From a bacterium (GTDB lineage Bacteria > Actinomycetota > Acidimicrobiia > Spongiisociales > Spongiisociaceae), in NCBI GenBank assembly GCA_026710435.1, contig JAPOQZ010000231.1:12959-76958 (forward strand): 64,000 bases of DNA, in the 5' to 3' direction. Position numbers and translations under genes: made by a program. The notes beneath the pieces were generated by a model that did no database searches, was not told the origin of the DNA, and was given only the letters and a program-made list of their open reading frames with translations. This document shows positions 1 through 14,617 of the stretch, piece by piece; position 1 is the stretch's first letter, and each line of letters begins with the position of its first letter.

Positions 1-104
1 ATCCGTTGCGGTACTGCCCCGACACGGCTGTGACCAGGGCGCAGATGGCCACCCTCCTGACCCGGGCTCTTGATCTCATGTCCGAGTCGAGCGTTGATAC
101 CTGA
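1..104 (+). CDS. 3' end of a gene that starts left of the window; the C-terminal peptide looks like an S-layer-homology (SLH) repeat
   Basis: Frame 3 is open from the window edge to TGA at 102-104. The peptide ...DTAVTRAQMATLLTRALDLMSESSVDT contains an SLH-like TRAQMAxxLxRAL motif. Only 33 codons are visible. Confidence 0.3.
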   Translation, partial: PLRYCPDTAVTRAQMATLLTRALDLMSESSVDT

Positions 105-332
105 GAACCCGTGCACGACGGAACTTCCGGTCGTACACCGCTATCGTCGATTACTCACAGGTGCGTGGGGGATTATCCGTTGTCAGACGACCCGGCAGCG
201 GTTTCCGCCGGATCCCACAACCCAGCCACCATACAATCCGACATTGCGGCACCGGACACTTGGCGGGGCTGCACGGTTATCACGATGCGTTGTATACTGA
301 TGGTTGAACACACAATTGAGTGGAGGAGAGCC

Positions 333-518
333 ATGGCTTCTGTTCCTACTACCGACACGGACGCCGGAGAGTTGACACTGGCTGACCTAGACGCATCCGT
401 GGGGACGAATCCCGACAGGACCGGTGATTTTGAGGCCGGGCGAACGCATTTCCACGCCAGCAGCGATGACTTCCTCGAGTGTCTCGAATCGCAGCCCTTC
501 GAGCGGGATAACGACTAG
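333..518 (+). CDS. small acidic hypothetical protein (61 aa), possible antitoxin-like partner of the next ORF
   Basis: ATG at 333 follows GGAGGAG by a few nt. The ORF ends 12 nt before the next ORF. The product is acidic (MASVPTTDTDAGELTLADLD...). No family was recognised. Confidence 0.35.
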   Translation: MASVPTTDTDAGELTLADLDASVGTNPDRTGDFEAGRTHFHASSDDFLECLESQPFERDND

Positions 519-530
519 CCCACACCACGG

Positions 531-830
531 ATGCCAACTCATGAAGAGTCTGGCTCGTTCCTGAGTGACGTACGCCATCTAACGCCGGAGCAGCGGATCC
601 GCTTCCTCACGGCCCTGCGAAGGTTCATTGATGACCTTCGGGCAATGGAGGCGGGAGAGCGGCGCTGGTTCCGGCCGGGGCTTCGCGTGAAGGGAGTGCG
701 GGAAGCACCGGGGTTGTTCGAGATGACATGGGCGCCTGATGGGCGAGCGACGTTCTCTCTCGGGGCTTCACAGAAGGGTGGTTTGCGGCATGTGCAGTGG
801 GAACGTTGCGGGGATCACAGCATTCTGTAG
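531..830 (+). CDS. RelE/ParE-fold-like putative toxin (99 aa)
   Basis: The C-terminal half, GLFEMTWAPDGRATFSLG...HVQWERCGDHSIL, resembles the beta-strand core of RelE/ParE-superfamily toxins. It is tightly coupled to the upstream small ORF. Confidence 0.4.
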   Translation: MPTHEESGSFLSDVRHLTPEQRIRFLTALRRFIDDLRAMEAGERRWFRPGLRVKGVREAPGLFEMTWAPDGRATFSLGASQKGGLRHVQWERCGDHSIL

Positions 831-1078
831 GAGCGGCCATCTTCGATACCTCAACGAGATCGGACGGCCTGGCTCAGCAGGAAACAGGAAGCGATCAGCC
901 CGGACCAAACGACTATCACGGTCGGGGCACTAATCCGAGGAGCAACATTCTCGTCGCCCGAAGTTCTGGGTCCGTGTTGCGGAGGCCAGTCCCAAACCAA
1001 AGGCAATGCTCGGTAGCCAAGTACGAGAGTCACATTCTCAGGTCACTGGAGGGTCAACTGGAAGGGCCGACCTAGTCC

Positions 1079-1354
1079 TCACTCAGGACCCATCTTCGAC
1101 ACGTACTTTCGCTGAGCGGCTTGCTTGGAAATGCCGAGCATCGCTCCGATCTCTGACCAGGTGCGCTGAGTGCGGCGGGCCGATCGAACTGCTGCAGTCA
1201 GATCATCCTCGACATCAGCGCGCAGCCGGGCCAGCGAGGCGATCTCCCGTAGTGCTTCGGTATCGGCATGCCTGAGTTCAGATGGGTCAACACGGTCAGC
1301 CCACTCCTCCAGTGCCTGCGCCCGTTCATCTCTTGTGTTGCTCATTTGATCCAC
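1079..1354 (-). CDS. helix-turn-helix protein, antitoxin-like (91 aa)
   Basis: The C-terminal WSEIGAMLGISKQAAQRKY is a classic HTH. It overlaps the upstream small ORF by 13 nt. Confidence 0.55.
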   Translation of the reverse strand: MDQMSNTRDERAQALEEWADRVDPSELRHADTEALREIASLARLRADVEDDLTAAVRSARRTQRTWSEIGAMLGISKQAAQRKYVSKMGPE

Positions 1355-1578
1355 CAGCCTCTTAGGAACTTCTTGCGAGCCTTTATGGCGTGGATGATCG
1401 CCGTACCTTCATCGTCAGCGACAACTCCGACCACCAACGGTTCTGCTGTGATGGAAGAACCGATGAACATCGTCACATCCGGGTCGTCTGTTTCATATGC
1501 TCGCCCCCGAAGTCGTAGTGCATGCAGCATGTCCTCGTCGGGAACACCGTGCTTGCGTGCGCTCGCTTCTACGTGCAC
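1342..1578 (-). CDS. BrnT/DUF497-like putative toxin (78 aa)
   Basis: GTG start at 1578. ARKHGV...ED near the N-terminus and IIHAIKARKKF near the C-terminus match the KHG and ISAR-K-A layout of BrnT-type toxins. It is the first gene of a two-gene cassette. Confidence 0.45.
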   Translation of the reverse strand: MHVEASARKHGVPDEDMLHALRLRGRAYETDDPDVTMFIGSSITAEPLVVGVVADDEGTAIIHAIKARKKFLRGWWIK

Positions 1579-1605
1579 GGTGCAATTCTTCCGAGACCAA
1601 CGTTA

Positions 1606-1631
1606 TTACCGTCAACATATGTTGACGGTAA
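1606..1631. promoter_or_regulatory. perfect 26-bp palindrome TTACCGTCAACATATGTTGACGGTAA, candidate operator of the toxin-antitoxin cassette
   Basis: I checked the reverse complement by hand and it is identical. It lies 28 nt upstream of the GTG at 1578, and each arm carries a TTGACG hexamer. Confidence 0.6.
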
Positions 1632-2093
1632 GAGGTCGTTGAGAAGTCGTCGTGCGGCGGTCGGATCCTGCGGTCGGCAAGCATGGTTGGGATCGGTTTA
1701 GGACTTGGAAGGTTGGCGCCTGCCTCTACGTCCGCGATGGACAATCGGGGTGACAACCGCCCTGGGCCGGACGAGGCCGAGGTGGGACTCTCAAGTGAGA
1801 GCTCGAGCGCTCGTCTGGTTCTTGGACGATCCCCTTTGTGGCTTGTGCCTTCCCGAACTACGGCGTGTCCACGATATCCGCAGTCGTTACGGGATCGCGG
1901 CACCCCGTGGTTGGTCTGTGGGGCGGCGGTGGGATATGGCGCCGCAAGCGGCGTCAATGGCAAGGACTCGCCGACGGAGGCGTACCCGCCGGGGTACGTC
2001 GAGGAGGCAGGACGCAGCCAGGGGCGTCGACGGCGGCCCAGAGTACGCCGCCCGCAACGCAGGACCGACGACGATCAAGCTAGCTTTGGTCCA

Positions 2094-3281
2094 ATGACTT
2101 CCAAGGTGCATGGCACCCTTCCGGCCGGCGCGGAGTTGGTGATAATCGGCGCCGGGATAGCGGGCGCGTCCACGGCGTTCTGGGCGGCCCGGGCAGGGCT
2201 GTCGCCGGTGGTTCTCGAGGCTCTGGCGGCGCCGGCTGCGCTCACCACCCCGGTCGCCACCGGGGCGTTCCGCTTGCAGTTCGATAACCCGGAGGAGACC
2301 GAACTGGTGCGGGAGTCGGTGGACCTGATGCTGAACTTCACGGAGATCACCGGCCAGGATTCACGGCCGTTGGGGGTCCGCCAGCCCGGCTACATCTGGG
2401 CGACCACGTCCGGGGAGCGGGCGGAGGGACAGCGGCGGCTGGTGGCTCGCCAGCATTCCTGGGGGCAGGCCGATATCGAGATCCTCGATGGTGACGAGGC
2501 CCGCCGCATGTTCCCCTACCTCAGCCCCGATGTCGTCCAGGCCCGCTACCGGGCGGGCGACGGCTTCGTCGATCCCAGGGCCCTGACTCTCGGACTGCTG
2601 CGTGCGTCGGGAGCCCCTGTACACACGTCGTGCCGGGTGTTGTCCCTCCGGGATCGTCCCTCCGGGGGTTTCGACGTCACTACCAACCACGGTGCCATCC
2701 GGGCGGAGCAGGTGGTGATCGCCGCCGGACCCTTCACCGGGAAGCTGGCCTCCCTCACAGGGGTGGACCTGCCCCTGGAGGTGAAACCACGCCACAAGGT
2801 GGTGGTTCCCTCCCTGGCGCGGGTGCCGCCCGACGCCCCCATGACCATCGACGACGACACAGGCGTGCATTGGCGTCCCGTCCTCTCGGGAGCCCACGTG
2901 CTGGACGCTGCTCCCCGGGGACCGGGTAGGCAGCCGGTGGAGGATGTCCCTCCCGACCACGACATGGCCTTCCGGGTGCTGGATCCCTCCCGTTCGGAGG
3001 CGGCCGCCCGGATCAGTCCCTTCTGGGGCGAGGCCTGGAGGGCAGGGGAGTTCTCGTGGATGGTTCACTCCGGGCAGTACACGATGAGCCCCGACCACCG
3101 TCCCCTAATCGGGCGGACCCCGATCGACGGACTGTGGGTGAACACCGGATACTCCGGACACGGCATCATGTGCTCCCCGGCAGGGGGACGCATCCTGGCG
3201 GACCTGATCACCTCACGGCTGGAGGACTCACCCTTCTCTCCCGACCGGACCTTCGAGGACAGGAGCTTGGACCACCTCTAG
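2094..3281 (+). CDS. FAD-dependent oxidoreductase (DAO family; D-amino-acid / D-hydroxyproline / sarcosine-oxidase-beta-like)
   Basis: The N-terminal Rossmann motif is VIIGAGIAGASTAFWAARAG and the C-terminal motif is GYSGHGIMCSPAGG. I chose the ATG at 2094 inside the longer ORF 1683..3281 because the dinucleotide-binding fold starts right after it. Confidence 0.8.
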   Translation: MTSKVHGTLPAGAELVIIGAGIAGASTAFWAARAGLSPVVLEALAAPAALTTPVATGAFRLQFDNPEETELVRESVDLMLNFTEITGQDSRPLGVRQPGYIWATTSGERAEGQRRLVARQHSWGQADIEILDGDEARRMFPYLSPDVVQARYRAGDGFVDPRALTLGLLRASGAPVHTSCRVLSLRDRPSGGFDVTTNHGAIRAEQVVIAAGPFTGKLASLTGVDLPLEVKPRHKVVVPSLARVPPDAPMTIDDDTGVHWRPVLSGAHVLDAAPRGPGRQPVEDVPPDHDMAFRVLDPSRSEAAARISPFWGEAWRAGEFSWMVHSGQYTMSPDHRPLIGRTPIDGLWVNTGYSGHGIMCSPAGGRILADLITSRLEDSPFSPDRTFEDRSLDHL

Positions 3282-3585
3282 TTTCCCGAGAGCGGGCAGG
3301 CCTTGGGACTGTGACCGTGGATTCCGTGCGGTCTCGGCTAGTGTCCCGGCACCAGATTCGCCATCGATCCACGTACGTGCTGGACATTCCACAGGGTGCT
3401 GGTTGAAGATAGGTCGGGAACCTATTTGGTTGATACTGTCGTGAGTAACCAGGAACCAGAGTCGATGGATGTTTCGCTTCCGCTGGCGGCGACCAGCAAG
3501 GAGGTGGTCCGTGAGATGTCCGATCCAGCAAGGCCACCCGTCGACGGTTCATCTGTGGTCGGCACCTGGGCTATGACCGTACCGA

Positions 3586-4181
3586 TCAGTAGGTGAAGGC
3601 ACCGGAGATGGCTGTGGCGCCGTCGACGGAGGCTTCGATACGGGCGGTGTCTTGGTGGGTTTCGGCGTCGATCCGGAGCCGGACTCCGGGGTAGACGGGT
3701 TTGGAGAAGCGCACCGTGGCTGCGGACAGGTCGGCCGGGTGGGCGCTGACAGCCCCGGCTGCGAACCATCCAGGAGGTGAAGTTGGGCAGGTGAACCACC
3801 ACCACCCGCCTCGTTTCGCCGGCGATCGCACGGATCTTGCGGGCTGCGTCGCCTGCCGCGTTCCAGAGATCGGCCCGTGACAGGTAGTCGGGGCCGCCAA
3901 CCAGGGCCAGATCGTCTGCGGACCTCGGTGACATGGGACTCGAAGCGATCCACCAGCCGCTGGCCGGTCCACCATCCCGCCCGCCGGTAGCCTGCCGCGG
4001 CGCCGCCGGTCACGAGTTCCTCCGAGGCTGGTGGCGCCATGGCGTCGATACGCAAGCGCGCTATCCCGGGAGGCACAATCGTCCCCGCATTACCGGAACG
4101 GTAACCGCTGCAAACGAGTACGGCACCGTCGAGAGCTGCATGATGCGTGGCTTGACAATCCGCAGGGCCCGGCCCGATCAC
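3586..4181 (-). pseudogene. decayed gene fragments: an adenylate-forming-enzyme N-terminus split over two frames, joined to a hot-dog (MaoC-like) C-terminal fragment in a third frame
   Basis: Frame a reads ...GYRRAGWWTGQRLVDRFESHV. Frame b reads DDLALVGGPDYLSRADLWNAAGDAARKIRAIAGETRRVVVVHLPNFTSWMV, which is an EntE/acyl-CoA-ligase N-terminal pattern. Frame c reads TVRFSKPVYPGVRLRIDAETHQDTARIEASVDGATAISGAFTY. No single frame spans all three pieces. Confidence 0.4.
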
Positions 4182-4205
4182 GCTGACCGCGCTGAAGGAG
4201 CCCGT

Positions 4206-4312
4206 CTAGGACGGTGCTGAACAATGACGATTGCTCGGGCCTGCCGCCCGCCACCCCAGGCATTTTGCCGGCGGTTGGCAGGCCGCTGGTGGATTGCTCA
4301 GCACCCTCCTAG
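4206..4312 (-). repeat. nested-palindrome intergenic repeat, copy A (107 bp, reverse orientation)
   Basis: Its reverse complement is nearly identical to copy B. Both ends carry CTAG: CTAGGACGGTGCTGAAC...GCTCAGCACCCTCCTAG. Confidence 0.9.
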
Positions 4313-4527
4313 GAGGGTGGTACGAGTGAAGTTCGTAGTATGAAGGTACGCAGCACAGACTCACCGTAGGGGATAAGTTTCGACGGGGCCCGTTCGGGCC
4401 CCCTCCTATGCGATTGAGGGGGTGCGCGGATAGGCGGACGGGGTTACCCTCGCCGTGAGAGCCTCAGCTGTTGCCACGTACGAAACCCCTGGCCATAGCC
4501 GTAGAGTCGCCAGATGGATCGGGGGGT

Positions 4528-6084
4528 TTACTCCCGGATCAGCGTGCGGGCCTGCTCCCGCACGTAGGAGCGCATGTACCAGGGACCGCCGCTGCCGGCG
4601 CCCGAGGTACCGGAGCTTTTCCAACCGCCGAAGGGCTGGATGTCGGGCCACGCACCGGTCGTGGACCCGGCCCGGCGGTTGGCGTAAACCACCCCGGCCT
4701 GGATGCGCTGGAAGAACCTGTCCACCTCCTCGTCGGTGCCGGCGAAGACCCCGGCGGTGAGCCCGAAGATCGTGTCGTTGGCCTTGTCGATCCCCTCGTC
4801 CAGAGAGTCCACAGGGGTCACCGCCACGAACGGCACGAACAACTCCTTCTCCCAGATCCAGGTCTCCTCCGGTGCGGTCACCACGGTGGGCTGCACGAAG
4901 TTGCCCCGCGCCATGTCGCCATCGGTGACCACCTCGCCCCCGGACAGGACCTCGCCTCCGGCTTCCCTCACAGCTTCCACCGCGGAACGGAAGCGGTCCA
5001 CCGCCTCCTGGTCGATCACCGGCCCCAGGAAGGTCTCACGGTCGCGAGGGTCTCCCAACCGGACCTCGGCGGTCTTCTCGGCGAGAAGACCGAGGAAATC
5101 CTCGAAGGCGGGCCTCTCCACGTACACACGGGAGTTGGCGGAGCACTTCTGGCCCGACAGCCCGAAGGCAGCACGCATCACCCCTTCGGCCGCCTGGTCG
5201 AGGTCGGCCGTGGCGGTCACCACCGCCGGGTTCTTGCCGCCCATCTCGCACACGACGGGCTTGGGACGGCCGGCGGCCACCGTCCGGTAGAGGTACATCC
5301 CGACGTCGTAGGAACCGGTGAAGGTGACCCCGTCCACATCGTCGTGATGGGCGAGCCGGTCACCCGCCTCGTCGCCCCCGGTCACCACCTGGAGAGCTCC
5401 GGCGGGCAGCCCCGCCCGGGCGTAGATGTCGGCCAGCAGCAAGGATCCGAGGGCGCCGGTGTTGGACGGCTTCAGCACCACCGTGTTGCCGGTCAGCAGA
5501 GCCGCCGAAGTGGGGCTGGCCACCAAGGCCAGAGGGAAGTTGAACGGGGAGATGACCGCCCACACGCCCCAGGGACGCAGCACCGAGTGGTTGGTGTCGC
5601 CCACCCCGTACTGTCCCATGGCCGTCGCCAACCCGTCGGACTCCTCGAGACGGTCGCAGTAGTAGTCCATGAAGGCCACCGCTTCGGAAACGTCGCCCAA
5701 CGCCTCGAGCCGGTTCTTCCCGATCTCGAGGGTGAGGAAGCCGGCCAGGGTAGGGGTCTCCTCCTCGACGATCGCAGCGGCTCGGCGGATGATGGCCAGC
5801 CGGTCCTGCCACGGTGTAGCCTCCTACTCCGCCTGGAATGCCTGGGAAACGGCTACGGCCCCGTCCACATCGTAATCGGAAGCCTGCGAGTAGATCCCCA
5901 CTACGAGATCAGAATCGACGGGGGACCGCTCGGTGAATGTCTCGCCGGTGTACCGCTTCTCACCGTTGATGATCAGCGGATGGGTCTGCCCGATACGGGA
6001 GCTGGCGGCGGTCAAGCCCTCCTCGTAGGCGTGGTGGAGCGCCGGATCGTCGGCCGACATGGTGGCGTAGGTAATTCTTCCCAT
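4528..6084 (-). pseudogene. aldehyde dehydrogenase (1-pyrroline-5-carboxylate / semialdehyde dehydrogenase-like) interrupted by one in-frame TAG at 5824-5826
   Basis: ORFs 5824..6084 and 4528..5700 and the 123 nt between them are all in one frame (1557 nt). The translation reads ...AVAVSQAFQAE*EATPWQDRLAIIRRAAAIVEEETPTLAGFLTLEIGKNRLEALGDVSEAVAFMDYY... and continues through a complete ALDH. Confidence 0.8.
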
Positions 6085-6322
6085 TGTTCCTTACCTTGTG
6101 CGCGAATTGCTGGAAAACGACTCCAGAACTTAGCATGCGTTCCCCCTACCTCTGATGGTCTGTCTCTGAAATGATTCGACGCGCCCTGCCAGCCGGCGAC
6201 GCCCTTCACGGCGTTCCGGTTCCTCAACGTACCGCTGCGGGTACGCCCTTGCCGGCGGGCCTTGCGAGAAACGCCGCTGCCGGCGCCTCCCACACCGCCA
6301 CTCCCCATGCAGGCCACCGTCC

Positions 6323-7342
6323 ATGACCTTCATCCGCCGGTTTCATACGATCGACTCCCACACCGGAGGTGAACCCACCCGGGTAGTCACCGACGGGTTC
6401 CCGGCGCTGGAGGGAGACACCCTGCGGGAGATGGAGGCGGATTTCCTGGCCAACCACGCGGATGTGGCCAGGATGCTGGTCGGCGAACCGCGCGGGCACG
6501 CTCCGTTGCACGCCGTCGTGCCACTCCCGCCGATGCATCCGGAAGCGGATCTCTCCATACTGATCCTGTCCGCGCTCGGTTCGCTGACCATGTGCGGCCA
6601 TGCCTTGATCGGGACGGTCACCAGCCTGGTGGAGATGTTCAGGATCCAACCGGTGGAGCCCGTGACCAGGCTGGTGGTGGAGACCCTCAGCGGCCTCGTC
6701 GTGGCCGACGCACACGTGGAGGGGACCAAGGTTCGTTCGGTCACCTTCCAGGGAGTGCCCTCCTGGGTGGCATTGACGGGTGTCAAGGTGGAGGTCGACG
6801 GACGTTCCATCGTTGTGGACATCGTTTTCGGGGGTCTCTGGTTCGCGCTGGTCCGGATCGAACAGGTCGGTCTGCCGATCTCAGTGGAGTCGGTGCCGAA
6901 CCTCGTTGCCCTCAGCCATCGGATCCGCTCGGAGGTGAACGGGGCACTCCGGAGTCGGGCCGACTTGCCGCCGGGAACTCCGGACCGGGTCGATCAGTTG
7001 CTCTACGTGGGACCACCCAGCAGCCCGGGCGTCGACGGGCAGAATCTGGCGACGTCCACCGGCCTGGGATTCGACCGCTCCCCCTGCGGGACCGGGAGTT
7101 GCGCGCGTATGGCCTGGCACTTCGCGAGGGGGGAACTGGGCGTGGGGGAAGCCTTCGTCCACGAGAGCGTGCTCAACACCACCTTCACCGGCACGGTCAA
7201 GGCCGAGACAGCAATCTCAGGACGGAGCGCGATCATCCCCACCATCACCGGCTCCGCCTACCTGACCGGCTTCAACCAACTGGTCCTCGACCAAGGCGAC
7301 CCCCTGGGGGAGGGTATCTTCATCCCTGCCGCTGGGGGATAG
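6323..7342 (+). CDS. proline racemase family protein, probably a 4-hydroxyproline 2-epimerase or proline racemase
   Basis: N-terminal HTIDSHTGGEPTRVV. Both catalytic cysteine contexts are present (LTMCGHALIG and DRSPCGTGSCARM). Confidence 0.85.
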   Translation: MTFIRRFHTIDSHTGGEPTRVVTDGFPALEGDTLREMEADFLANHADVARMLVGEPRGHAPLHAVVPLPPMHPEADLSILILSALGSLTMCGHALIGTVTSLVEMFRIQPVEPVTRLVVETLSGLVVADAHVEGTKVRSVTFQGVPSWVALTGVKVEVDGRSIVVDIVFGGLWFALVRIEQVGLPISVESVPNLVALSHRIRSEVNGALRSRADLPPGTPDRVDQLLYVGPPSSPGVDGQNLATSTGLGFDRSPCGTGSCARMAWHFARGELGVGEAFVHESVLNTTFTGTVKAETAISGRSAIIPTITGSAYLTGFNQLVLDQGDPLGEGIFIPAAGG

Positions 7343-7493
7343 GCATCTGATCGTGGTTCCCGCGGCTAGCCGCTCCGTAATTCAACTGGACCTTCTCCGG
7401 GGGTAACGTTGCCGTAGCTGCCGATACACGGTTCCGAACCGGCGACGTCACCCTAGGGTAGACTTAAGGGAGCCGACGGCCTGGAAGGGGGGG

Positions 7494-8681
7494 TTGGTGC
7501 TTCGTCCGCGTCTCACCAGGCTGCAAGCTACCGAGTTCCGCTCGCTCGCGAAGGTCGACATTCCCCTCGGTCCCTTGACCGTGCTAGTAGGTCCCAACGG
7601 TTCGGGAAAGACCAACGTACTCAACGTGCTCAGGTTCCTGGCTTCGACAGTCCGCTTCGACTTAGCAAGTGCTATCGATGAGTGGGACGGATTTCACTTT
7701 ATCAAACGGCAGGGGCTGAACAGGGCCAGAAACGTGAATCTACGAGTCTCGGGCCTGTTGACCGATCACGCAAGCCGCACTGCGCTGGACGTGTACGAGT
7801 TGAGGTTCACCCAAGACGTTGCTGGGATTCTGTCACGACGTGAGTCCTTCACATTCAAGGGTACGCCCGGAAGAGGACGACGGAGGAAGATCGAGGTGAA
7901 GGGAACCCAGGCAGCGATTGGATCTGAGGACATCTGGCAGCTGGCAACTGGCCAGACAACTGTCCTCGCCACGCTGCCACGGCTCGCTGACGACCAAGGC
8001 GGAGCAGGCATTCGAAAACTGGCCGACTTCCTGTCCTCAATCCGCGTACTTGAGCCGGACATGGTGGCAGCGCGACGGCCCTCCCGAATGGTCAAAGGTC
8101 GTTTAGCGGACGATGCGGGCAACCTCGCCGCAGCCTTACACAGTCTTTCCAACGGGGACCCCGAATCGTTTGAAAGCCTGATGTCCGAAATGCGTTTCTG
8201 CCTGCCCGGCCTCGACTCCATCCGCTTCGAGCCCGTCGGGGGGCCCGGCAAGGCAGTGGCTGTCGCGCTACACGAGAAAGGTATTAGGTTGCCGGTGTAT
8301 CTGGAGGAAGCATCGTTCGGTACGGTCCGAATGTTGGCGCTCTTGACGGCCCTCCATGAACCTGACCCGCCACCGTTCACCGGGATCGAAGAGGTCGACC
8401 ATGGCTTGCATCCATGGGCAATCGATATCCTGGTCGACCGGCTGCGTGCCGCGTCACAGAACTCACAGATCCTGATCACTACCCACGCACCTACTCTCGT
8501 AAACCGCCTTAAGCCTCTGGAGTTGGTCGTCTGCGACCGTGACCCAGACACCGGAGCATCCGTGATTCCATGTATCAACAGCGCTCAGGTCCTCGCGGCC
8601 GAACAGGGCGCGGACGGTCTGAGGCCAGGAGAACTCTGGTTTGCCGGAGCCTTGGACGGAGTCCCACGCGGTACCTCCTGA
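7494..8681 (+). CDS. ABC/SMC-type AAA ATPase (AAA_15/AAA_21-like), first gene of a putative two-gene defence module
   Basis: Walker A is GPNGSGKTN at residues ~33-41. A long insert follows, then FTGIEEVDHGLHP (Walker B/D-loop-like) and ILITTHAP (H-loop). The start is TTG 7494 or GTG 7497, right after a G-rich RBS. Hand counts of two 60-nt stretches gave 52-53% GC, against ~65% in a nearby metabolic gene. Confidence 0.8.
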   Translation: MVLRPRLTRLQATEFRSLAKVDIPLGPLTVLVGPNGSGKTNVLNVLRFLASTVRFDLASAIDEWDGFHFIKRQGLNRARNVNLRVSGLLTDHASRTALDVYELRFTQDVAGILSRRESFTFKGTPGRGRRRKIEVKGTQAAIGSEDIWQLATGQTTVLATLPRLADDQGGAGIRKLADFLSSIRVLEPDMVAARRPSRMVKGRLADDAGNLAAALHSLSNGDPESFESLMSEMRFCLPGLDSIRFEPVGGPGKAVAVALHEKGIRLPVYLEEASFGTVRMLALLTALHEPDPPPFTGIEEVDHGLHPWAIDILVDRLRAASQNSQILITTHAPTLVNRLKPLELVVCDRDPDTGASVIPCINSAQVLAAEQGADGLRPGELWFAGALDGVPRGTS

Positions 8682-9349
8682 TGGTACGCGCCAGGTACCG
8701 GCGCCATCAAAGCAACCAACCCGTGGTTCTCGTATTCGGTGAGAGCCTCAACGATGCTAGAGCGGTCAAAACTCTGATCGTAGCGCTGTGTCCCTCGCTC
8801 CAGAATCGAGTCAAGGAGCAGGCGCGACCACCTTCTCTGCAGAAGTCGGCTGGACAACAGCCAGTGACGCGATGGATGCTTGGTCTCCGGCAGGTAGTCG
8901 AAACTGTCTCTAGACGCAGACCTATAGCTTGTGTCTTTGTTCATCTTGATTCTGACGGACCCGACCCGCACGGAAGAACCGCAGCCCGTACGGAGGCATC
9001 GATGCGTCAGGTTGGAATCGACAACGGATTTGCAGTGGTCCCTGTTCAAGAGATCGAGTCGTGGTGGCTGATGTATCCCGAAGCAACCGAGCGTCTCCGA
9101 ACACCGTGGTCGGGGACACTGCCTACCTCTCCGCGCGCCGTAGACATGATATCCGGTCCCAAGGAAGAGTTGGTGAGACGAACCGCACGCAAAGATCGAA
9201 GGACAGCATATGCAGAAGCCGATTCTCCTGATGTAGCGAGACTCGTGGGTAGCGCCATCGCGTCGGGGCATCCACCCACGGGCACCAGCCCTTCGTTCGA
9301 CCGGTTCAAACGCTCCGTAGCCAAATGCTGTACGGTGCAGGGATCATAG
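8681..9349 (+). CDS. Toprim-like protein (DUF4276 / DUF4435 / RloB-like motif layout), second gene of the module
   Basis: The ATG at 8681 overlaps the ATPase stop (TGATG). The motifs VVLVFGES (Glu), VFVHLDSDGPD (DxD) and VQEIESWWL follow the order seen in Toprim-type partners of OLD/PARIS/AbiL ATPases. A hand count of one 60-nt stretch gave 50% GC. Confidence 0.55.
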   Translation: MVRARYRRHQSNQPVVLVFGESLNDARAVKTLIVALCPSLQNRVKEQARPPSLQKSAGQQPVTRWMLGLRQVVETVSRRRPIACVFVHLDSDGPDPHGRTAARTEASMRQVGIDNGFAVVPVQEIESWWLMYPEATERLRTPWSGTLPTSPRAVDMISGPKEELVRRTARKDRRTAYAEADSPDVARLVGSAIASGHPPTGTSPSFDRFKRSVAKCCTVQGS

Positions 9350-9402
9350 GAGCGACCGCGAAGGTGAGGATCCTCCTCTCGCAAGACCGTTGGCCATCCG
9401 TA

Positions 9403-9609
9403 TCATCCACGCCGGTGTCCGGTTGACGATCGTAGGGAACCCCCTCCGCCTTCGTAGATCTCCACCGCTGCGGCAAGAGCGTCCTCCGCGTTTGCCACGG
9501 CCTCGACGGTAGTGTCGTCCTCAGTTATCAGCTCGGGTAACAATGGCGACGTGACTGTATAGCCCCCTTCACGCTGAGGATGCAGGATGAGAGGTATCTT
9601 CACCATCAC
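9403..9609 (-). CDS. HicB-family antitoxin-like protein (68 aa), with no recognisable HicA beside it
   Basis: LILHPQREGGYTVTSPLLPELITEDDTTVEAVANAEDALAAAVEIY matches the HicB N-terminal pattern (GGY..x.P.lP....G.T.eEA..na.eA). Confidence 0.55.
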   Translation of the reverse strand: MMVKIPLILHPQREGGYTVTSPLLPELITEDDTTVEAVANAEDALAAAVEIYEGGGGSLRSSTGHRRG

Positions 9610-9730
9610 AGGCCAACTCCCGGCTACGACGTTTGACCCTCGCTCAGGCTCGGCTGTGCCCTCCCCCAGCCTTGAGCCAAGAGTCGTGACTACTGCCTTG
9701 ACCGATTGCTATTGCAGGGGAGCCATCCGC

Positions 9731-9844
9731 ATGCAGGTCCGCTACAACCCGGAAGCGGACGCTATGCTCGTCACGCTGCGCTCCCCAAGGAGGGTGGGAG
9801 GGTGGTGTGAAACCGCTTTCAAGGACCGTCGACCGATAGCATAG
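9731..9844 (+). pseudogene. truncated DUF2283-like ORF (37 aa)
   Basis: MQVRYNPEADAMLVTL matches the DUF2283 N-terminal signature (MKxxYDxEADALYIxL), and GGGGAG lies 8 nt upstream. The ORF stops at about half the usual family length. Confidence 0.3.
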
Positions 9845-10097
9845 TGCCTGGTCAGAGGTAGACGGGCCGTTGCTCTCCACCGTTTGGACCACCCCTGCTA
9901 CCGGAGGGGGAAGCGGGTGGACAGCGGCTCGACGAGACGCGGATCGCGCACCCCGATCAGGCCGGTCGTGTCTTTGCCTACGAATTCTTGGCAATGAACC
10001 ACGGGGGGTTCCGTTGGGGAATCGGAGCCGATACGCTAACGCCAATGTCCGAGGCCCTCCAGCCGGTCAAGGCGCTCGCAGTCGTTTGAGGCTTGTC

Positions 10098-11141
10098 TCA
10101 GAGAGGCTTGACCATCTCGCCCCGACGGGCGGACTCGTATAGGGCCTCCATCACCGCAGTTGTCCTCCGACCCTCCCATCCGTCGACCAGCGGGGGACGT
10201 CCTTCCGAGACGGCTGCCACGAAGTCCTCCAACTGCGAGTAGTGCAGGCTGGAGTCGGCGTAACCGGCCATCGTCAACGTGTCCCCCCGGTCCACCGGAC
10301 CGGCGTTCATCAACTCCTCGATCTCGGGTGAAGGCCCGCCCGGTACATCCCACTGCACCAAGTCGTCGTCCACCATGCCCACCGTCCCCAGGGTTCCCCG
10401 GATGGTGAGGCTGCGCGGCTGGGGGTTTACCGCCGCGGTGGTGCTCGTCAAAGTGGCGAGCGTTCCGTTGGCAAATCGCAGCACGCCCAGGGTGGAGTCC
10501 TCGACCTCGATGCTGTGCAGGGGCGAGGTGCTGTAGAAACCGGCCACCGACTCCACGTCGCCCAGCATCCAGATCATCAGGTCCAGGCTGTGGCTGGTCT
10601 GGGTGACCAGCGACCCGCCTCCCTCCGTCTCCCACCTGCCCCGCCAGGCACCGGAGTCGTAGTAGGGCTGGTCGCGGTAGAACAGCCCGGTGCATTCGGC
10701 GATCAGGGGCAGGCCGATCAGACCGCCGGTGACCGACTCCCGCATCCGGAGGGCGGTGTCGAGGAAGCGGTACATGTATATGCAGCCCAGAGTCACTCCC
10801 GCCCGGTCGCAGGCCTCGATCATCCGGTCGGCGTCCGCCACGGTGGTGGCTATGGGCTTCTCGGTGAGGACGTGCAAACCCGCGGCGGCCGCTCCGATGG
10901 TCATGCGGGCGTGGCCACCGGTCGGCGACGCCACGCAGACCGCGTCGATGTCCGACCGGACCAGGTCGCGCCAGTCGGTGTGGACCTCGGTCACCCCGTA
11001 GCTGGCACCGAAGCCGGTCGCCTTCTCCCGGTTGCGAGAGCAGACCGACACCAGTCGGGCGCCTCGGGGACGGCCGGCCAAGGCACCGGCGAAGAGTTGG
11101 CCGCCTCCCCCGGTACCGATCAGGCCGAAGCGGAGGCTCAC
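10098..11141 (-). CDS. Gfo/Idh/MocA family NAD(P)-dependent oxidoreductase
   Basis: N-terminal LRFGLIGTGGGGQLFAGAL followed by LTEKP. I chose the GTG at 11141 inside ORF 10098..11357. Confidence 0.8.
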   Translation of the reverse strand: MSLRFGLIGTGGGGQLFAGALAGRPRGARLVSVCSRNREKATGFGASYGVTEVHTDWRDLVRSDIDAVCVASPTGGHARMTIGAAAAGLHVLTEKPIATTVADADRMIEACDRAGVTLGCIYMYRFLDTALRMRESVTGGLIGLPLIAECTGLFYRDQPYYDSGAWRGRWETEGGGSLVTQTSHSLDLMIWMLGDVESVAGFYSTSPLHSIEVEDSTLGVLRFANGTLATLTSTTAAVNPQPRSLTIRGTLGTVGMVDDDLVQWDVPGGPSPEIEELMNAGPVDRGDTLTMAGYADSSLHYSQLEDFVAAVSEGRPPLVDGWEGRRTTAVMEALYESARRGEMVKPL

Positions 11142-13545: not shown

Positions 13546-14019
13546 TCAGTCCAGACCGGAGAGGGCTTCGATCAGTGTCGGAATCCCCAGACGGCCCTTG
13601 ACCTCGCCTACATCCTTGGCTAGGTCGACAACGATCCCGGTGAGCCCGTCCAAACGCACATCAATCTGCCCGAAACGCTCATCCATGCGGTCGAACCGCC
13701 TGTCCACACCGTCGAACCGGCTATCAATACCCTCCAACCGCCTATCAATACCCTCCAACCGGCTATCCACACCGTCCAACCGCCTATCAATACCCTCCAA
13801 CCGCCTATCCACACCGTCCAACCGGCTATCAATACCCTCCAACCGCCTATCCACACCGTCGAACCGCTTATCTACACGATCGAACCGGCTCTCGATCGCG
13901 GCGATAACCGACGCCAAGTCAGCACGGCGTGCACGATCCAGGTAGATCATCACGGTCAGCATGATCGTCATCATCATTGTGATCATGCCGCCGAAAACAC
14001 CAACGGTCACTGCATCCAT
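13546..14019 (-). CDS. membrane-anchored protein made of about 12 heptad repeats (D-x-R-L/F-D/E-G-V/I)
   Basis: An N-terminal hydrophobic helix (VGVFGGMITMMMTIMLTVMIYL) is followed by DKRFDGV DRRLEGI DSRLDGV DRRLEGI DRRLDGV DSRLEGI DRRLEGI DSRFDGV DRRFDRM DERFGQI DVRLDGL. I chose the ATG at 14019, which has a GGGAG RBS. Confidence 0.65.
   Translation of the reverse strand: MDAVTVGVFGGMITMMMTIMLTVMIYLDRARRADLASVIAAIESRFDRVDKRFDGVDRRLEGIDSRLDGVDRRLEGIDRRLDGVDSRLEGIDRRLEGIDSRFDGVDRRFDRMDERFGQIDVRLDGLTGIVVDLAKDVGEVKGRLGIPTLIEALSGLD
13646..13897. repeat. in-frame 21-bp tandem repeat array (about 10 well-conserved units plus 2 diverged) inside the heptad-repeat gene
   Basis: Units such as CCCTCCAACCGCCTATCAATA and CCGTCCAACCGGCTATCCACA alternate from ~13688 to ~13897. 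Diverged units extend down to ~13646. Confidence 0.85.
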
Positions 14020-14617
14020 CGTGCTGTCTCCCTGCCTGAACGCTACCACACCAACCAGCTAAAGGCCCCGTCTACGTCCGTGTGATGCCATATCACCGGT
14101 TGATTTCGATATATCACATGAAACGAGGATCGGTCAAGACCCATGTGGACCCAACCGGGAATGATCTCCTCCCCATTTGGTGAATCCCTACGCCGGCGCG
14201 GGTGACCGCCTACGTACACGCCCTCTCCCCACCGTGCTTCAGTAGGACTGCAATCGCCATACGATCCTTGTATGGCTGAAGTGCGGCCTTGCGATCAGGT
14301 AGAGGTTGCCTCCGGGTCCGGCTCGCAGTTTTGCCCTCACGGGTTTGGCTCTCACTGCTACAGATGTCACGCGACGGATTGACGCCGGCCGGACATCTCC
14401 CCTCCCAGCATCATCGCACGCGCTCACTCCTTCGGTTCCGCTGGTGTACGCGTGGTGCACTCGTGCAAGTCGGACGTGTGTCTTGGTTTCCTTGGCCGGT
14501 GTACACCGAACTGGGCGGATGCCGGGATGATTTGCCGGCTGGATCGGCTCGACACCGGAGCAGAGCATCGAGAGCCGGGCCGCGGATCGCAGAAACCCGC
14601 AGAAAGGAGTGCCTGTT

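What the first reader, a model, noticed from the sequence alone, without database searches (positions are those of the whole stretch)
7494..9349. Low-GC two-gene module: ABC/SMC-type ATPase plus Toprim-like partner, a candidate uncharacterised anti-phage system (PARIS / AbiL / OLD-like logic)
Seen in the sequence: a 395-aa ATPase with Walker A (GPNGSGKTN), a long insertion, FTGIEEVDHGLHP and ITTHAP. It is translationally coupled (TGATG, 1-nt overlap) to a 222-aa ORF carrying, in order, a conserved Glu (VVLVFGES), a DxD (VFVHLDSDGPD) and VQEIESWWL. Established knowledge: this is the motif order of Toprim-type nuclease domains that partner ABC ATPases in OLD-family nucleases, PARIS (AriA/AriB-DUF4435), AbiL (RloB-like) and the uncharacterised ATPase + DUF4276 pairs. 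Hand GC counts on 60-nt stretches gave 50-53% inside the pair, against ~65% in a neighbouring metabolic gene. The pair sits among toxin-antitoxin cassettes, solo antitoxin-like genes and decayed genes. Inference: a horizontally acquired abortive-infection or defence module of a type that, as far as I know, has not been characterised experimentally.
Basis: partly seen in the sequence, partly recalled or inferred. Interest (0 to 1): 0.75.

Follow-up and report, generated by a model that had tools for sequence, protein, structure and literature searches.

The report
ATPase plus Toprim-like defence candidate (HEC-01)
The two overlapping genes are a real, intact ABC-type ATPase and a small DUF4276-like (Toprim-type) nuclease partner. 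The pair matches the anti-phage candidate that the PADLOC catalogue already lists as HEC-01, so it is a divergent new member of a known, mechanistically unstudied family and not a new kind of system.

Summary
ORF1 (7494-8681, 395 aa) and ORF2 (8681-9349, 222 aa) overlap by one base (TGATG), and every quoted motif is present.

ORF1 matches the PADLOC model HEC-01A over its full length (E 3e-117) and also Pfam AAA_21, SMC_N and AAA_15. ORF2 matches HEC-01B (E 5e-25). It falls below Pfam's threshold for DUF4276 (16.8 bits against 30.2), but its family is related to genuine DUF4276 proteins (hhalign probability 90%, E 1.5e-6).

The predicted ORF2 structure (pLDDT 86.5) has the Toprim order of strands and helices, with Glu21 after strand 1 and Asp90-x-Asp92 after strand 3. 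Its only significant fold match is a phage RloB-like protein. No solved Toprim structure matched.

The pair has 59.1% GC, not 50-53%, but it is still the lowest-GC stretch of its length in the 65% GC window. Related genomes have an empty site between the same flanking genes, so the pair lies in a 2.75-kb insertion. Both genes are under purifying selection and co-vary across 28 loci.

[quoted passage not shown] No mechanism is known.

The parts
7343..10097 (.). The 2.75-kb insertion relative to the empty site in related genomes. It holds the ATPase/Toprim-like pair, a HicB-like gene and about 490 bp with no recognisable gene.
   Evidence: Similarity to L063 and L062 stops at window 7338 and resumes at 10096-10125. 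In L063 the stop codons of the proline racemase and GFO_IDH genes are 37 bp apart. GC of the insertion is 60.1%.
7494..8681 (+). ORF1: ABC/SMC-type ATPase of 395 aa, HEC-01A type.
   Evidence: PADLOC PDLC04183 E 3.1e-117, covering 3-400 of 402 model positions. Pfam AAA_21 4e-33, SMC_N 9e-18, AAA_15 2e-14. Ka/Ks 0.09-0.12 against relatives.
7590..7616 (+). Walker A / P-loop, GPNGSGKTN (residues 33-41).
   Evidence: Sequence. GxNGxGK(T/S) is conserved in 37 homologues.
8313..8324 (+). ABC signature-like SFGT (residues 274-277, within ASFGTVRMLALL).
   Evidence: AS(F/Y)GT(V/I)R(L/M)L is conserved in 37 homologues.
8376..8414 (+). Walker B and D-loop region, FTGIEEVDHGLHP (residues 295-307). The usual Walker B Asp is Glu across the whole family (IEE).
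   Evidence: AIEExDHGL is conserved in 37 homologues. The tested P. agarici HEC-01A reads CVEEPENQLYP at the aligned position.
8475..8492 (+). H-loop, ITTHAP (residues 328-333).
   Evidence: TTH(A/S) is conserved in 37 homologues.
8681..9349 (+). ORF2: DUF4276-like (Toprim-superfamily) partner of 222 aa, HEC-01B type. It is translationally coupled to ORF1.
   Evidence: PADLOC PDLC04207 E 5.3e-25, covering 1-201 of 203 model positions. Weak Pfam DUF4276 hit, 16.8 bits. hhalign of the family against DUF4276 proteins, 90% probability, E 1.5e-6. AlphaFold2 model pLDDT 86.5. Ka/Ks 0.12-0.32.
8723..8746 (+). VVLVFGES: predicted strand 1 followed by invariant Glu21. This is the position of the Toprim glutamate.
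   Evidence: Strand 15-19 in the model. E21 is invariant in 17 close homologues and at least 90% conserved in 108.
8933..8965 (+). VFVHLDSDGPD: predicted strand 3 followed by Asp90-x-Asp92 (and Asp95). This is the position of the Toprim DxD.
   Evidence: Strand 82-88 in the model. D90 is invariant and D92 at least 90% conserved in 108 homologues.
9044..9070 (+). VQEIESWWL: follows predicted strand 4. It carries conserved Glu126 and Trp128 and aligns with the hEFEALLF motif of DUF4276.
   Evidence: E126 is at least 90% conserved and W128 is invariant in 108 homologues. It aligns with the DUF4276 motif in hhalign.

Best explanation
This is a self-contained, horizontally acquired two-gene module of the PADLOC HEC-01 type. 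It pairs an ABC (SMC/OLD/AriA-like) ATPase with a small DUF4276-like nuclease of the Toprim superfamily, and both are translated from one coupled transcript.

By analogy with PARIS and the OLD and Gabija systems, the likely mechanism is as follows. The ATPase oligomer holds the nuclease inactive and acts as the sensor. A phage-derived cue, together with ATP binding or hydrolysis, releases or activates the nuclease. The nuclease then cuts nucleic acid using metal ions bound by Glu21, Asp90 and Asp92 (with Glu126), and this stops infection.

Shown here: the family identity, intact catalytic motifs, coupling, co-inheritance of the two genes, purifying selection, insertion at a variable site and foreign base composition.

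Inferred: the anti-phage role, formation of a complex, the trigger, and whether the target is DNA or RNA.
For: - Full-length matches to HEC-01A (E 3e-117) and HEC-01B (E 5e-25), and ABC ATPase Pfam families for ORF1.
- ATPase motifs are conserved in 37 homologues.
- The ORF2 model (pLDDT 86.5) has the order strand-helix-strand-helix-strand-helix-strand, with Glu21 after strand 1 and DxD after strand 3.
- The best fold match is a phage RloB-like protein (E 3.7e-4, TM 0.48).
- The ORF2 family is related to DUF4276: 20 of 108 members hit PF14103, and hhalign gives 90% probability, E 1.5e-6.
- DUF4276 and RloB are classed as Toprim in PMC12065111. The HEC-01 preprint superposes HEC-01B on the Toprim domain of the OLD nuclease 6NK8 with a shared metal site.
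- The ATPase lies directly upstream of the partner in about 45 of 51 loci, with no conserved third gene. Identities of the two proteins co-vary (Spearman 0.886, n=28).
- Ka/Ks is 0.09-0.32.
- Related genomes have an empty site between the same flanking genes. The pair is the lowest-GC stretch of the window, with low GC3.
- Distant ATPase homologues on plasmids are each followed by a DUF4276 gene. Some of these pairs sit inside type I restriction-modification or Hma-like operons.
- One HEC-01 system protected E. coli B against at least one phage (PMC12881386).
- mad3 and mad4 are each needed for MADS defence.
Against: - There is no experiment on this subfamily.
- The one HEC-01 tested by its discoverers gave no protection. 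That system is only 24% identical in the ATPase and barely detectable in the partner.
- Foldseek against solved structures gave no significant Toprim match, for the whole model or for the core alone. Profile searches of PDB sequences found nothing.
- The pair is not in a defence island. Neighbours here and in relatives are mostly metabolic genes.
- Within one lineage it has stayed at one site and is strongly conserved, which also fits a domesticated host function.
Confidence: 0.62

Rival explanations
1. The pair is a selfish addiction or toxin-antitoxin-like cassette. The nuclease would be a toxin restrained by the ATPase, and the pair would persist by killing cells that lose it, with no benefit against phage.
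For: - Pfam describes AAA_21 as a 'putative AbiEii toxin, Type IV TA system'.
- The pair often lies beside toxin-antitoxin genes: HicB-like here, HepT/MNT in L052 and L057, PIN in L067, ParE in L068 and VapBC in L073.
- It moves as a unit and is not in defence islands.
- One tested HEC-01 gave no phage protection.
Against: - About one third of the loci have one partner split or truncated while the other looks intact, including loci with a broken ATPase next to an intact nuclease gene. That is hard to reconcile with a lethal toxin that the ATPase must restrain.
- Another HEC-01 did protect against phage.
- The related Mad3/Mad4 pair is needed for phage defence.
- Addiction and abortive infection do not exclude each other.
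Confidence: 0.12
2. The pair is an orphaned accessory module of a methylation-based system. Like Mad3/Mad4 in MADS/Hma, or pairs embedded in type I restriction-modification operons, it would work only together with a methyltransferase and helicase encoded elsewhere, or not at all.
For: - Distant homologous pairs on plasmids sit inside type I restriction-modification (Meiothermus), Hma-like (Aeromonas) and methyltransferase (Anabaena) operons.
- ORF1's best NCBIfam hit is MAD3 (E 1e-32).
- HEC-01 was first found embedded in Hma.
Against: - The MAD3 score of 113.8 bits is far below the 420-bit cut-off, and no PADLOC mad4 model matched ORF2.
- No methyltransferase or helicase lies within the insertion or its flanks.
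- No third gene is conserved across 47 loci.
- Purifying selection on a pair that stands alone at the same site in several genomes argues that it works on its own.
Confidence: 0.1
3. The pair is a domesticated housekeeping ATPase-nuclease for DNA repair or chromosome maintenance (SbcCD/RecF/RecN-like) in this Acidimicrobiia lineage.
For: - ORF1 has SMC_N, RecF and RecN-like similarity.
- The pair is at the same site in at least six related genomes or contigs, among metabolic genes.
- The ATPase is better conserved than the neighbouring proline racemase: 95% against 86% identity to L055.
Against: - Related genomes with an empty site lack the pair.
- Its distribution across phyla is patchy and the contexts are unrelated.
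- Decayed copies are frequent.
- GC3 is foreign to the host genome.
- The similarity to repair proteins is confined to the generic P-loop and signature regions, with scores far below the family cut-offs.
Confidence: 0.06

Closest known systems
PADLOC HEC-01 (Hma-embedded candidate 01: ABC ATPase HEC-01A + Toprim/DUF4276 protein HEC-01B; preprint 10.1101/2024.01.29.577857)
   Same: Both proteins match the HEC-01 models over their full length (E 3e-117 and 5e-25). The gene order is the same and the genes are tightly coupled. The ATPase has the same length (395 aa) and the same Glu-for-Asp Walker B variant as the tested P. agarici protein. The partner has the same Glu and DxD arrangement.
   Different: It is only 24% identical to the tested P. 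agarici ATPase. The partner is barely alignable to P. agarici HEC-01B (E 0.053) and falls below Pfam's DUF4276 threshold. It is not embedded in Hma. The hosts are Acidimicrobiia whose closest named relatives are sponge-associated, not Proteobacteria.
MADS Mad3/Mad4 (AAA/ABC ATPase + DUF4276 protein inside the methylation-associated defence system of Pseudomonas aeruginosa)
   Same: It has the same two-protein architecture and belongs to a related family. MAD3 is ORF1's best NCBIfam hit.
   Different: ORF1 scores 113.8 bits against the 420-bit cut-off. No mad4 model matched ORF2. None of the other MADS genes (methyltransferase, helicase and the rest) is nearby.
PARIS (AriA ABC ATPase + AriB DUF4435 Toprim nuclease)
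   Same: It pairs an AAA_15/21 ABC ATPase with a separate small Toprim-type effector. PARIS is the best mechanistic template: the ATPase scaffold senses a phage protein and releases a nuclease that cleaves tRNA (PMC11464382).
   Different: ORF2 gave no DUF4435 or AriB hit. The AriA models match ORF1 far more weakly (1e-31) than HEC-01A does. Trigger and target are unknown here.
AbiL / RloA-RloB
   Same: It pairs an ATPase with a small Toprim-like partner. The only significant fold match of the ORF2 model is a phage RloB-like protein (E 3.7e-4, TM 0.48).
   Different: ORF2 gave no RloB (PF13707) or AbiLii sequence hit. The AbiLi match to ORF1 is weak (3.5e-18).
OLD-family nucleases and Gabija GajA
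   Same: They combine an ABC ATPase with Toprim nuclease chemistry. The closest solved structure by sequence to the ORF1 N-terminus is an OLD-family protein (6p74, E 4e-11).
   Different: In OLD and GajA the two domains are fused in one polypeptide. ORF2 gave no OLD-like_TOPRIM (PF20469) hit. There is no GajB-like helicase.

Membership tests
PADLOC HEC-01 | Protein matching a HEC-01A model (ABC ATPase) | tested here: met
   PDLC04183 E 3.1e-117, residues 5-389 against model positions 3-400 of 402.
PADLOC HEC-01 | Protein matching a HEC-01B model (Toprim/DUF4276-like) | tested here: met
   PDLC04207 E 5.3e-25, residues 15-217 against model positions 1-201 of 203. Three further HEC-01B models also match.
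PADLOC HEC-01 | The two genes adjacent on the same strand | tested here: met
   The genes overlap by 1 nt. The same order is seen in about 45 of 51 related loci. The PADLOC program itself, with its system rules, was not run.
PADLOC HEC-01 | Demonstrated anti-phage activity | not testable with these tools
   The literature is mixed: no protection for the P. agarici system, and protection against at least one of T7, T5 and T4 for a cold-seep system. Nothing has been tested for this subfamily.
Pfam DUF4276 (PF14103) | Score at or above the gathering threshold of 30.2 bits | tested here: not met
   16.8 bits, E 0.0083. The family is nevertheless related: 20 of 108 members hit at E<0.01, best 2.7e-6. 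hhalign against six annotated DUF4276 proteins gives 90.3% probability, E 1.5e-6, over the C-terminal 106 columns only.
Toprim superfamily | Conserved Glu after strand 1 and DxD after strand 3 | tested here: met
   Model strands are at 15-19 and 82-88. E21, D90 and D92 are conserved in 108 homologues.
Toprim superfamily | Three-layer alpha/beta fold with strand order 2-1-3-4, superposable on a solved Toprim domain | tested here: inconclusive
   Foldseek against the PDB gave nothing significant for the whole model (best E 0.012) or for the core alone (best E 0.026). Against BFVD the top hit is an RloB-like protein (E 3.7e-4, TM 0.48).
ABC ATPase (AAA_21/AAA_15/SMC_N) | Walker A, signature-like motif, Walker B and H-loop in order, with Pfam scores above threshold | tested here: met
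   AAA_21 116.2 bits (threshold 27), SMC_N 64.9 (40), AAA_15 54.3 (32.1). The motifs are conserved in 37 homologues. The Walker B Asp is Glu throughout the family.
PARIS (AriA/AriB) | Partner protein with a DUF4435 (AriB) domain | tested here: not met
   ORF2 gave no PF14491 hit and no PADLOC AriB hit at E<=1.
AbiL (AbiLi/AbiLii, RloB) | Partner protein matching RloB (PF13707) or AbiLii | tested here: not met
   No sequence hit. There is only a fold-level resemblance to one RloB-like phage protein.
OLD family / Gabija GajA | ATPase and Toprim fused in one protein, with the OLD-like_TOPRIM domain (PF20469) | tested here: not met
   There are two separate ORFs, and neither hits PF20469.
MADS (Mad3/Mad4) | MAD3 equivalog score of at least 420 bits, a Mad4 match and the MADS core genes nearby | tested here: not met
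   MAD3 scores 113.8 bits. No mad4 model matched ORF2. The flanks encode proline racemase, a HicB-like protein and a GFO_IDH oxidoreductase.

The most novel reading that the evidence does not exclude
This subfamily may be a mechanistically distinct ATPase-gated nuclease with its own trigger and target, for example a tRNA or another RNA as in PARIS. Three observations leave this open. The partner is invisible to Pfam, and public gene calls even truncate it to its C-terminal 115 aa. The pair is fixed at one site in a lineage of Acidimicrobiia whose closest named relatives are sponge-associated. The ATPase is under stronger constraint than the neighbouring metabolic gene. If so, it could serve as a compact model for how the whole HEC-01 and Mad3/Mad4 class works.
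Probability: 0.15. Interest if true: 0.55.

Novelty: new member of a known kind. Interest (0 to 1): 0.3.

Why it matters
ATPase + DUF4276 pairs are widespread. They occur alone, inside restriction-modification and Hma/MADS operons, and on plasmids. They are counted as HEC-01 in defence-system surveys, yet nobody knows what they sense or cut, and the two published phage tests disagree.

This locus adds a clean natural case. The pair is intact and under selection. It has a matching empty site, stands alone, and comes from a lineage (Acidimicrobiia close to sponge-associated species) that is poorly represented in defence studies. It also shows that Pfam and routine gene calling miss the catalytic half of the partner protein.

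It does not reveal a new principle. Its value is as one more well-documented member of a family that deserves biochemical study.

Tried and rejected
- Foldseek of the full ORF2 model and of a separately predicted core (residues 13-131) against the PDB gave no Toprim or any other significant hit.
- Profile searches of PDB sequences with alignments A1 and A2 found nothing.
- NCBIfam gave no family for ORF2.
- tblastn of ORF2 against 72,556 plasmids found no match.
- A word-indexed profile search with A2 returned only unannotated 'hypothetical' relatives and did not reach Pfam-annotated DUF4276 proteins.
- hhalign of A2 against the single P. agarici HEC-01B sequence was not significant (E 0.053), although DQD/DSD and ELEAF/EIESW line up.
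- Searches for mobile-element hallmarks or extra parts in 7000-10300 found no Rfam match, no sigma-70-like promoter, no terminator above the number expected by chance, and no meaningful direct or inverted repeats at the insertion boundaries.
- A conserved third gene was looked for in 47 loci and not found.
- Membership of PARIS, AbiL, OLD/Gabija and MADS was considered and rejected on the domain tests listed in the membership table.
- The idea that ORF2 is decaying, because it has the lowest GC3 and a public gene call truncates it to 115 aa, was rejected. The full 222-aa frame is open, its N-terminal motifs match those of relatives, and Ka/Ks is 0.12-0.32.
Full report

ORF1 occupies 7494-8681 on the + strand (TTG start, 395 aa). 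A GTG one codon downstream is an equally plausible start, and relatives are called at 393-394 aa. ORF2 occupies 8681-9349 on the + strand (ATG start, 222 aa). The TGA stop of ORF1 (8679-8681) shares its last base with the ATG of ORF2.

The motifs are not chance.
- In an alignment of 37 ATPase homologues taken from related loci, the Walker A (GPNGSGKT), an ABC signature-like AS(F/Y)GT, the Walker B block AIEExDHGLHP and the H-loop TTH(A/S) are all conserved.
- In 17 close and 108 distant homologues of ORF2, the residues E21, D90, D92, E126, W128, K161, Y177, E179 and D181 are invariant or at least 90% conserved.

The base-composition claim is right in direction but overstated.
- ORF1 is 59.8% GC and ORF2 57.7% GC. 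The pair is 59.1%, against 65.0% for the window.
- Only 20% of 60-nt windows inside the pair are at or below 53%.
- Even so, the pair is the lowest-GC 1.86-kb stretch of the whole 64 kb (0.1th percentile, 3 SD below the mean).
- Third-position GC is 0.67 and 0.56, against 0.80-0.86 in most neighbouring genes.

**2. What the proteins are**

ORF1 passes Pfam's thresholds for AAA_21 (116 bits), SMC_N and AAA_15. Against PADLOC it matches model HEC-01A (PDLC04183) end to end at E 3e-117. That is far better than its matches to AriA (1e-31), mad3 (1e-24), AbiLi, Old or GajA. The NCBIfam MAD3 hit (113.8 bits) is far below its 420-bit cut-off. The closest solved structures by sequence share only the P-loop or signature regions: an OLD-family nuclease, PtuA and SMC heads.

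ORF2 matches PADLOC HEC-01B (PDLC04207) over positions 1-201 of 203 at E 5e-25. In Pfam it gives only a sub-threshold DUF4276 hit (16.8 bits against 30.2), and NCBIfam gives nothing.

The ORF2 family is moderately large and unannotated. A profile search gave 460 cluster representatives at E<=1e-3. All named members are 'hypothetical protein' with no Pfam domain on record.

Two tests tie the family to DUF4276.
- Twenty of 108 members hit PF14103 at E<0.01, with a best E of 2.7e-6. No other family recurs.
- hhalign of the 108-member alignment against six plasmid proteins that PGAP names 'DUF4276 family protein' gives 90.3% probability, E 1.5e-6, across the C-terminal 106 columns.

**3. Is ORF2 a Toprim fold?**

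The AlphaFold2 model (pLDDT 86.5, pTM 0.85) has strand 15-19, helix, strand 44-47, helix, strand 82-88, helix and strand 116-119, followed by a helical C-terminal part. Glu21 directly follows strand 1, and Asp90-x-Asp92 directly follows strand 3. Those are the Toprim positions.

The fold searches gave mixed results.
- Foldseek against BFVD returns one significant hit, a phage RloB-like protein (E 3.7e-4, probability 1.00, TM 0.48).
- Foldseek against the PDB returns nothing significant, for the whole model or for a separately predicted core.

I therefore rate the fold test as inconclusive on my own evidence. The Toprim assignment rests on four things: the motif geometry, the RloB-like hit, the link to DUF4276, and two papers. 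PMC12065111 places DUF4276 and RloB in the Toprim superfamily. The HEC-01 preprint superposes HEC-01B on the Toprim domain of the OLD nuclease 6NK8 with a shared metal-binding site.

**4. Genomic behaviour**

A scan of species-representative genomes found 51 loci. Most are Acidimicrobiia MAGs, several of them named after sponges (Ca. Spongiisocius, Poriferisocius, Poriferisodalis) or assigned to Ca. Aldehydirespirator. Others are Pseudonocardiaceae, further Actinomycetota, Myxococcota-like bacteria, Alphaproteobacteria, Planctomycetota and a few more.

The pair behaves as a two-gene unit.
- The ATPase lies immediately upstream of the partner in about 45 loci.
- No third gene is conserved. Shared neighbours are confined to groups of related genomes.
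- Identities of the two proteins to the window's copies co-vary (Spearman 0.886, n=28).

The pair was inserted at a variable site.
- In the window's own lineage it sits at the same place, downstream of an aldehyde dehydrogenase and a proline racemase gene. This holds in at least six genomes or contigs: L001/L052, L002/L053, L055, L057-59 and L064.
- Three related metagenome contigs have the same flanks without the pair. In L063 the proline racemase and GFO_IDH stop codons are 37 bp apart. L062 and L065 carry an unrelated 570-bp insert.
- The window therefore carries a 2.75-kb insertion (7343-10097). It contains the pair, a HicB-like gene and about 490 bp with no recognisable gene.
- Other relatives hold further metabolic genes at the same spot. 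The span between the proline racemase and GFO_IDH genes is about 6.9 kb in L053 and L057 and about 13.8 kb in L052.

Both genes are under purifying selection. Ka/Ks against four relatives is 0.09-0.12 for ORF1 and 0.12-0.32 for ORF2. Across the wider family, about one third of loci have one partner split or truncated. This carries a caveat for MAG assembly errors and for the limited reach of tblastn.

The neighbourhoods are mostly metabolic or housekeeping. Toxin-antitoxin genes are often nearby, and one locus (L069) has an adjacent OLD-family nuclease. Of nine neighbouring ORFs tested in the window, none matches a PADLOC model apart from weak coiled-coil and nucleotide-binding-motif hits. Taken together, the pair is mobile and dispensable but selectively maintained, and it is not a resident of a defence island. 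The HEC-01 authors say the same of most of their shortlisted candidate systems.

**5. What is known about this type**

HEC-01 was defined as an ABC ATPase plus a Toprim protein found embedded in Hma systems and also widespread outside them. The representative from Pseudomonas agarici gave no protection in E. coli against the BASEL phages. Its HEC-01B protein is annotated 'DUF4276 family protein'.

A cold-seep representative protected E. coli B against at least one of T7, T5 and T4 (PMC12881386).

In MADS, the ATPase + DUF4276 pair mad3/mad4 is needed for defence. Deleting the methyltransferase mad5 is tolerated only if mad2 or mad3 is also deleted. This suggests that the ATPase takes part in a toxic, restriction-like activity.

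The window's ATPase is 24% identical to the P. agarici protein over its full length and shares the Glu-for-Asp Walker B variant. The partner proteins are barely alignable. The negative P. agarici result therefore says little about this subfamily. I found no mechanistic study of HEC-01 in the held library.

**6. Mechanism**

The best-supported reading is an ATPase-gated nuclease in the manner of PARIS or OLD. The coupled genes would give a complex in which the ABC ATPase senses a phage cue and controls a metal-dependent Toprim-type nuclease. PARIS supplies the template: an AriA scaffold releases AriB, which cleaves tRNA (PMC11464382).

Shown here are the family identity, intact catalytic motifs, co-inheritance, selection and horizontal acquisition. 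Inferred are the complex, the trigger, the substrate and the defence phenotype.

The rivals are an addiction cassette, an orphaned accessory of a methylation-based system, and a domesticated repair factor. They are set out separately with their evidence.

**7. Verdict**

However, the system type is already catalogued and has been tested, with mixed results. This is a divergent new member of a known kind. Interest is modest.

Noticed in passing
window 4528-6084 (- strand); stop codon at 5824-5826: The aldehyde dehydrogenase gene upstream of the pair spans exactly 519 codons, like its 518-aa relatives, but carries a single in-frame TAG where the relative L055 has TGG (Trp). It is either a fresh pseudogene or a sequencing or strain variant.
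   Followed up: yes
window 8681-9349; proteins P0206 and P0207: The public protein collection holds the window's ORF2 only as a 115-aa product starting at Met108 (MRQVG...). A relative on another contig is truncated in the same way. Gene callers thus drop the N-terminal half, which carries the Glu and DxD catalytic motifs, probably because that half has low GC3.
   Followed up: partly
window 9403-9609 (- strand) and 9610-10097: A 68-aa HicB-like antitoxin gene (Pfam E 5e-4, below threshold) has no HicA partner. It is followed by about 490 bp in which no convincing ORF was found. Relatives have an 81-aa version directly beside the GFO_IDH gene, so the window's copy may be truncated.
   Followed up: partly
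window 1-2000, especially 1079-1354 and 1342-1578 (- strand) and 531-830 (+ strand): This is a second low-GC patch (about 60%) with small ORFs. It includes an overlapping 78-aa and 91-aa pair on the - strand, and the 91-aa protein ends in a weak helix-turn-helix match. The layout resembles a toxin-antitoxin pair, but Pfam and PADLOC give no family.
   Followed up: partly
window 13546-14049 (- strand): A low-GC (57.7%) gene encodes a 167-aa protein with a hydrophobic N-terminus and about a dozen seven-residue repeats (RLEGIDS/RLDGVDR). It gives only weak coiled-coil hits (DUF7310, JetA, JetC), which probably reflect composition.
   Followed up: no
the site between the proline racemase and GFO_IDH genes in L052, L053, L057, L055, L062 and L063: The junction between these two convergent genes is a variable spot. 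It holds 37 bp in L063, a 570-bp small gene in L062 and 2.75 kb in the window. In L053 and L057 it holds the pair plus DAO, sulfatase and two GAPDH-like genes, and in L052 the pair plus DAO, Rieske oxygenase, aminotransferase and other genes. In L055 the GFO_IDH gene itself is missing.
   Followed up: partly
L069 1159-5348: A homologous ATPase/partner pair lies next to a 658-aa OLD-family nuclease (AAA_15/AAA_21 + OLD-like_TOPRIM). This is the one neighbourhood seen with a recognised defence gene adjacent.
   Followed up: no
L067 6788-8639 and L068 6404-8253: In two related contigs the pair sits just upstream of a 750-aa topoisomerase IV/gyrase A-like gene, with different toxin-antitoxin genes beside it (PIN or ParE). 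The ATPase is shortened to 308 aa in L067 and split into 214 + 188 aa in L068, while the partner gene stays intact.
   Followed up: no
L061 8001-8729: The partner homologue P0013 (242 aa, with an N-terminal extension) has no ATPase called upstream. It lies a few kb from two N6_N4 methyltransferase genes, a very large unannotated gene and an SNF2 helicase gene. It may be an orphan, or part of a larger system.
   Followed up: no
L070 (Meiothermus plasmid) 2170-8795: A distant ATPase + DUF4276 pair lies between the S and R subunit genes of a type I restriction system, next to a DUF4433 + macro domain pair (DarTG-like). It is a clear example of defence genes nested inside another system.
   Followed up: no
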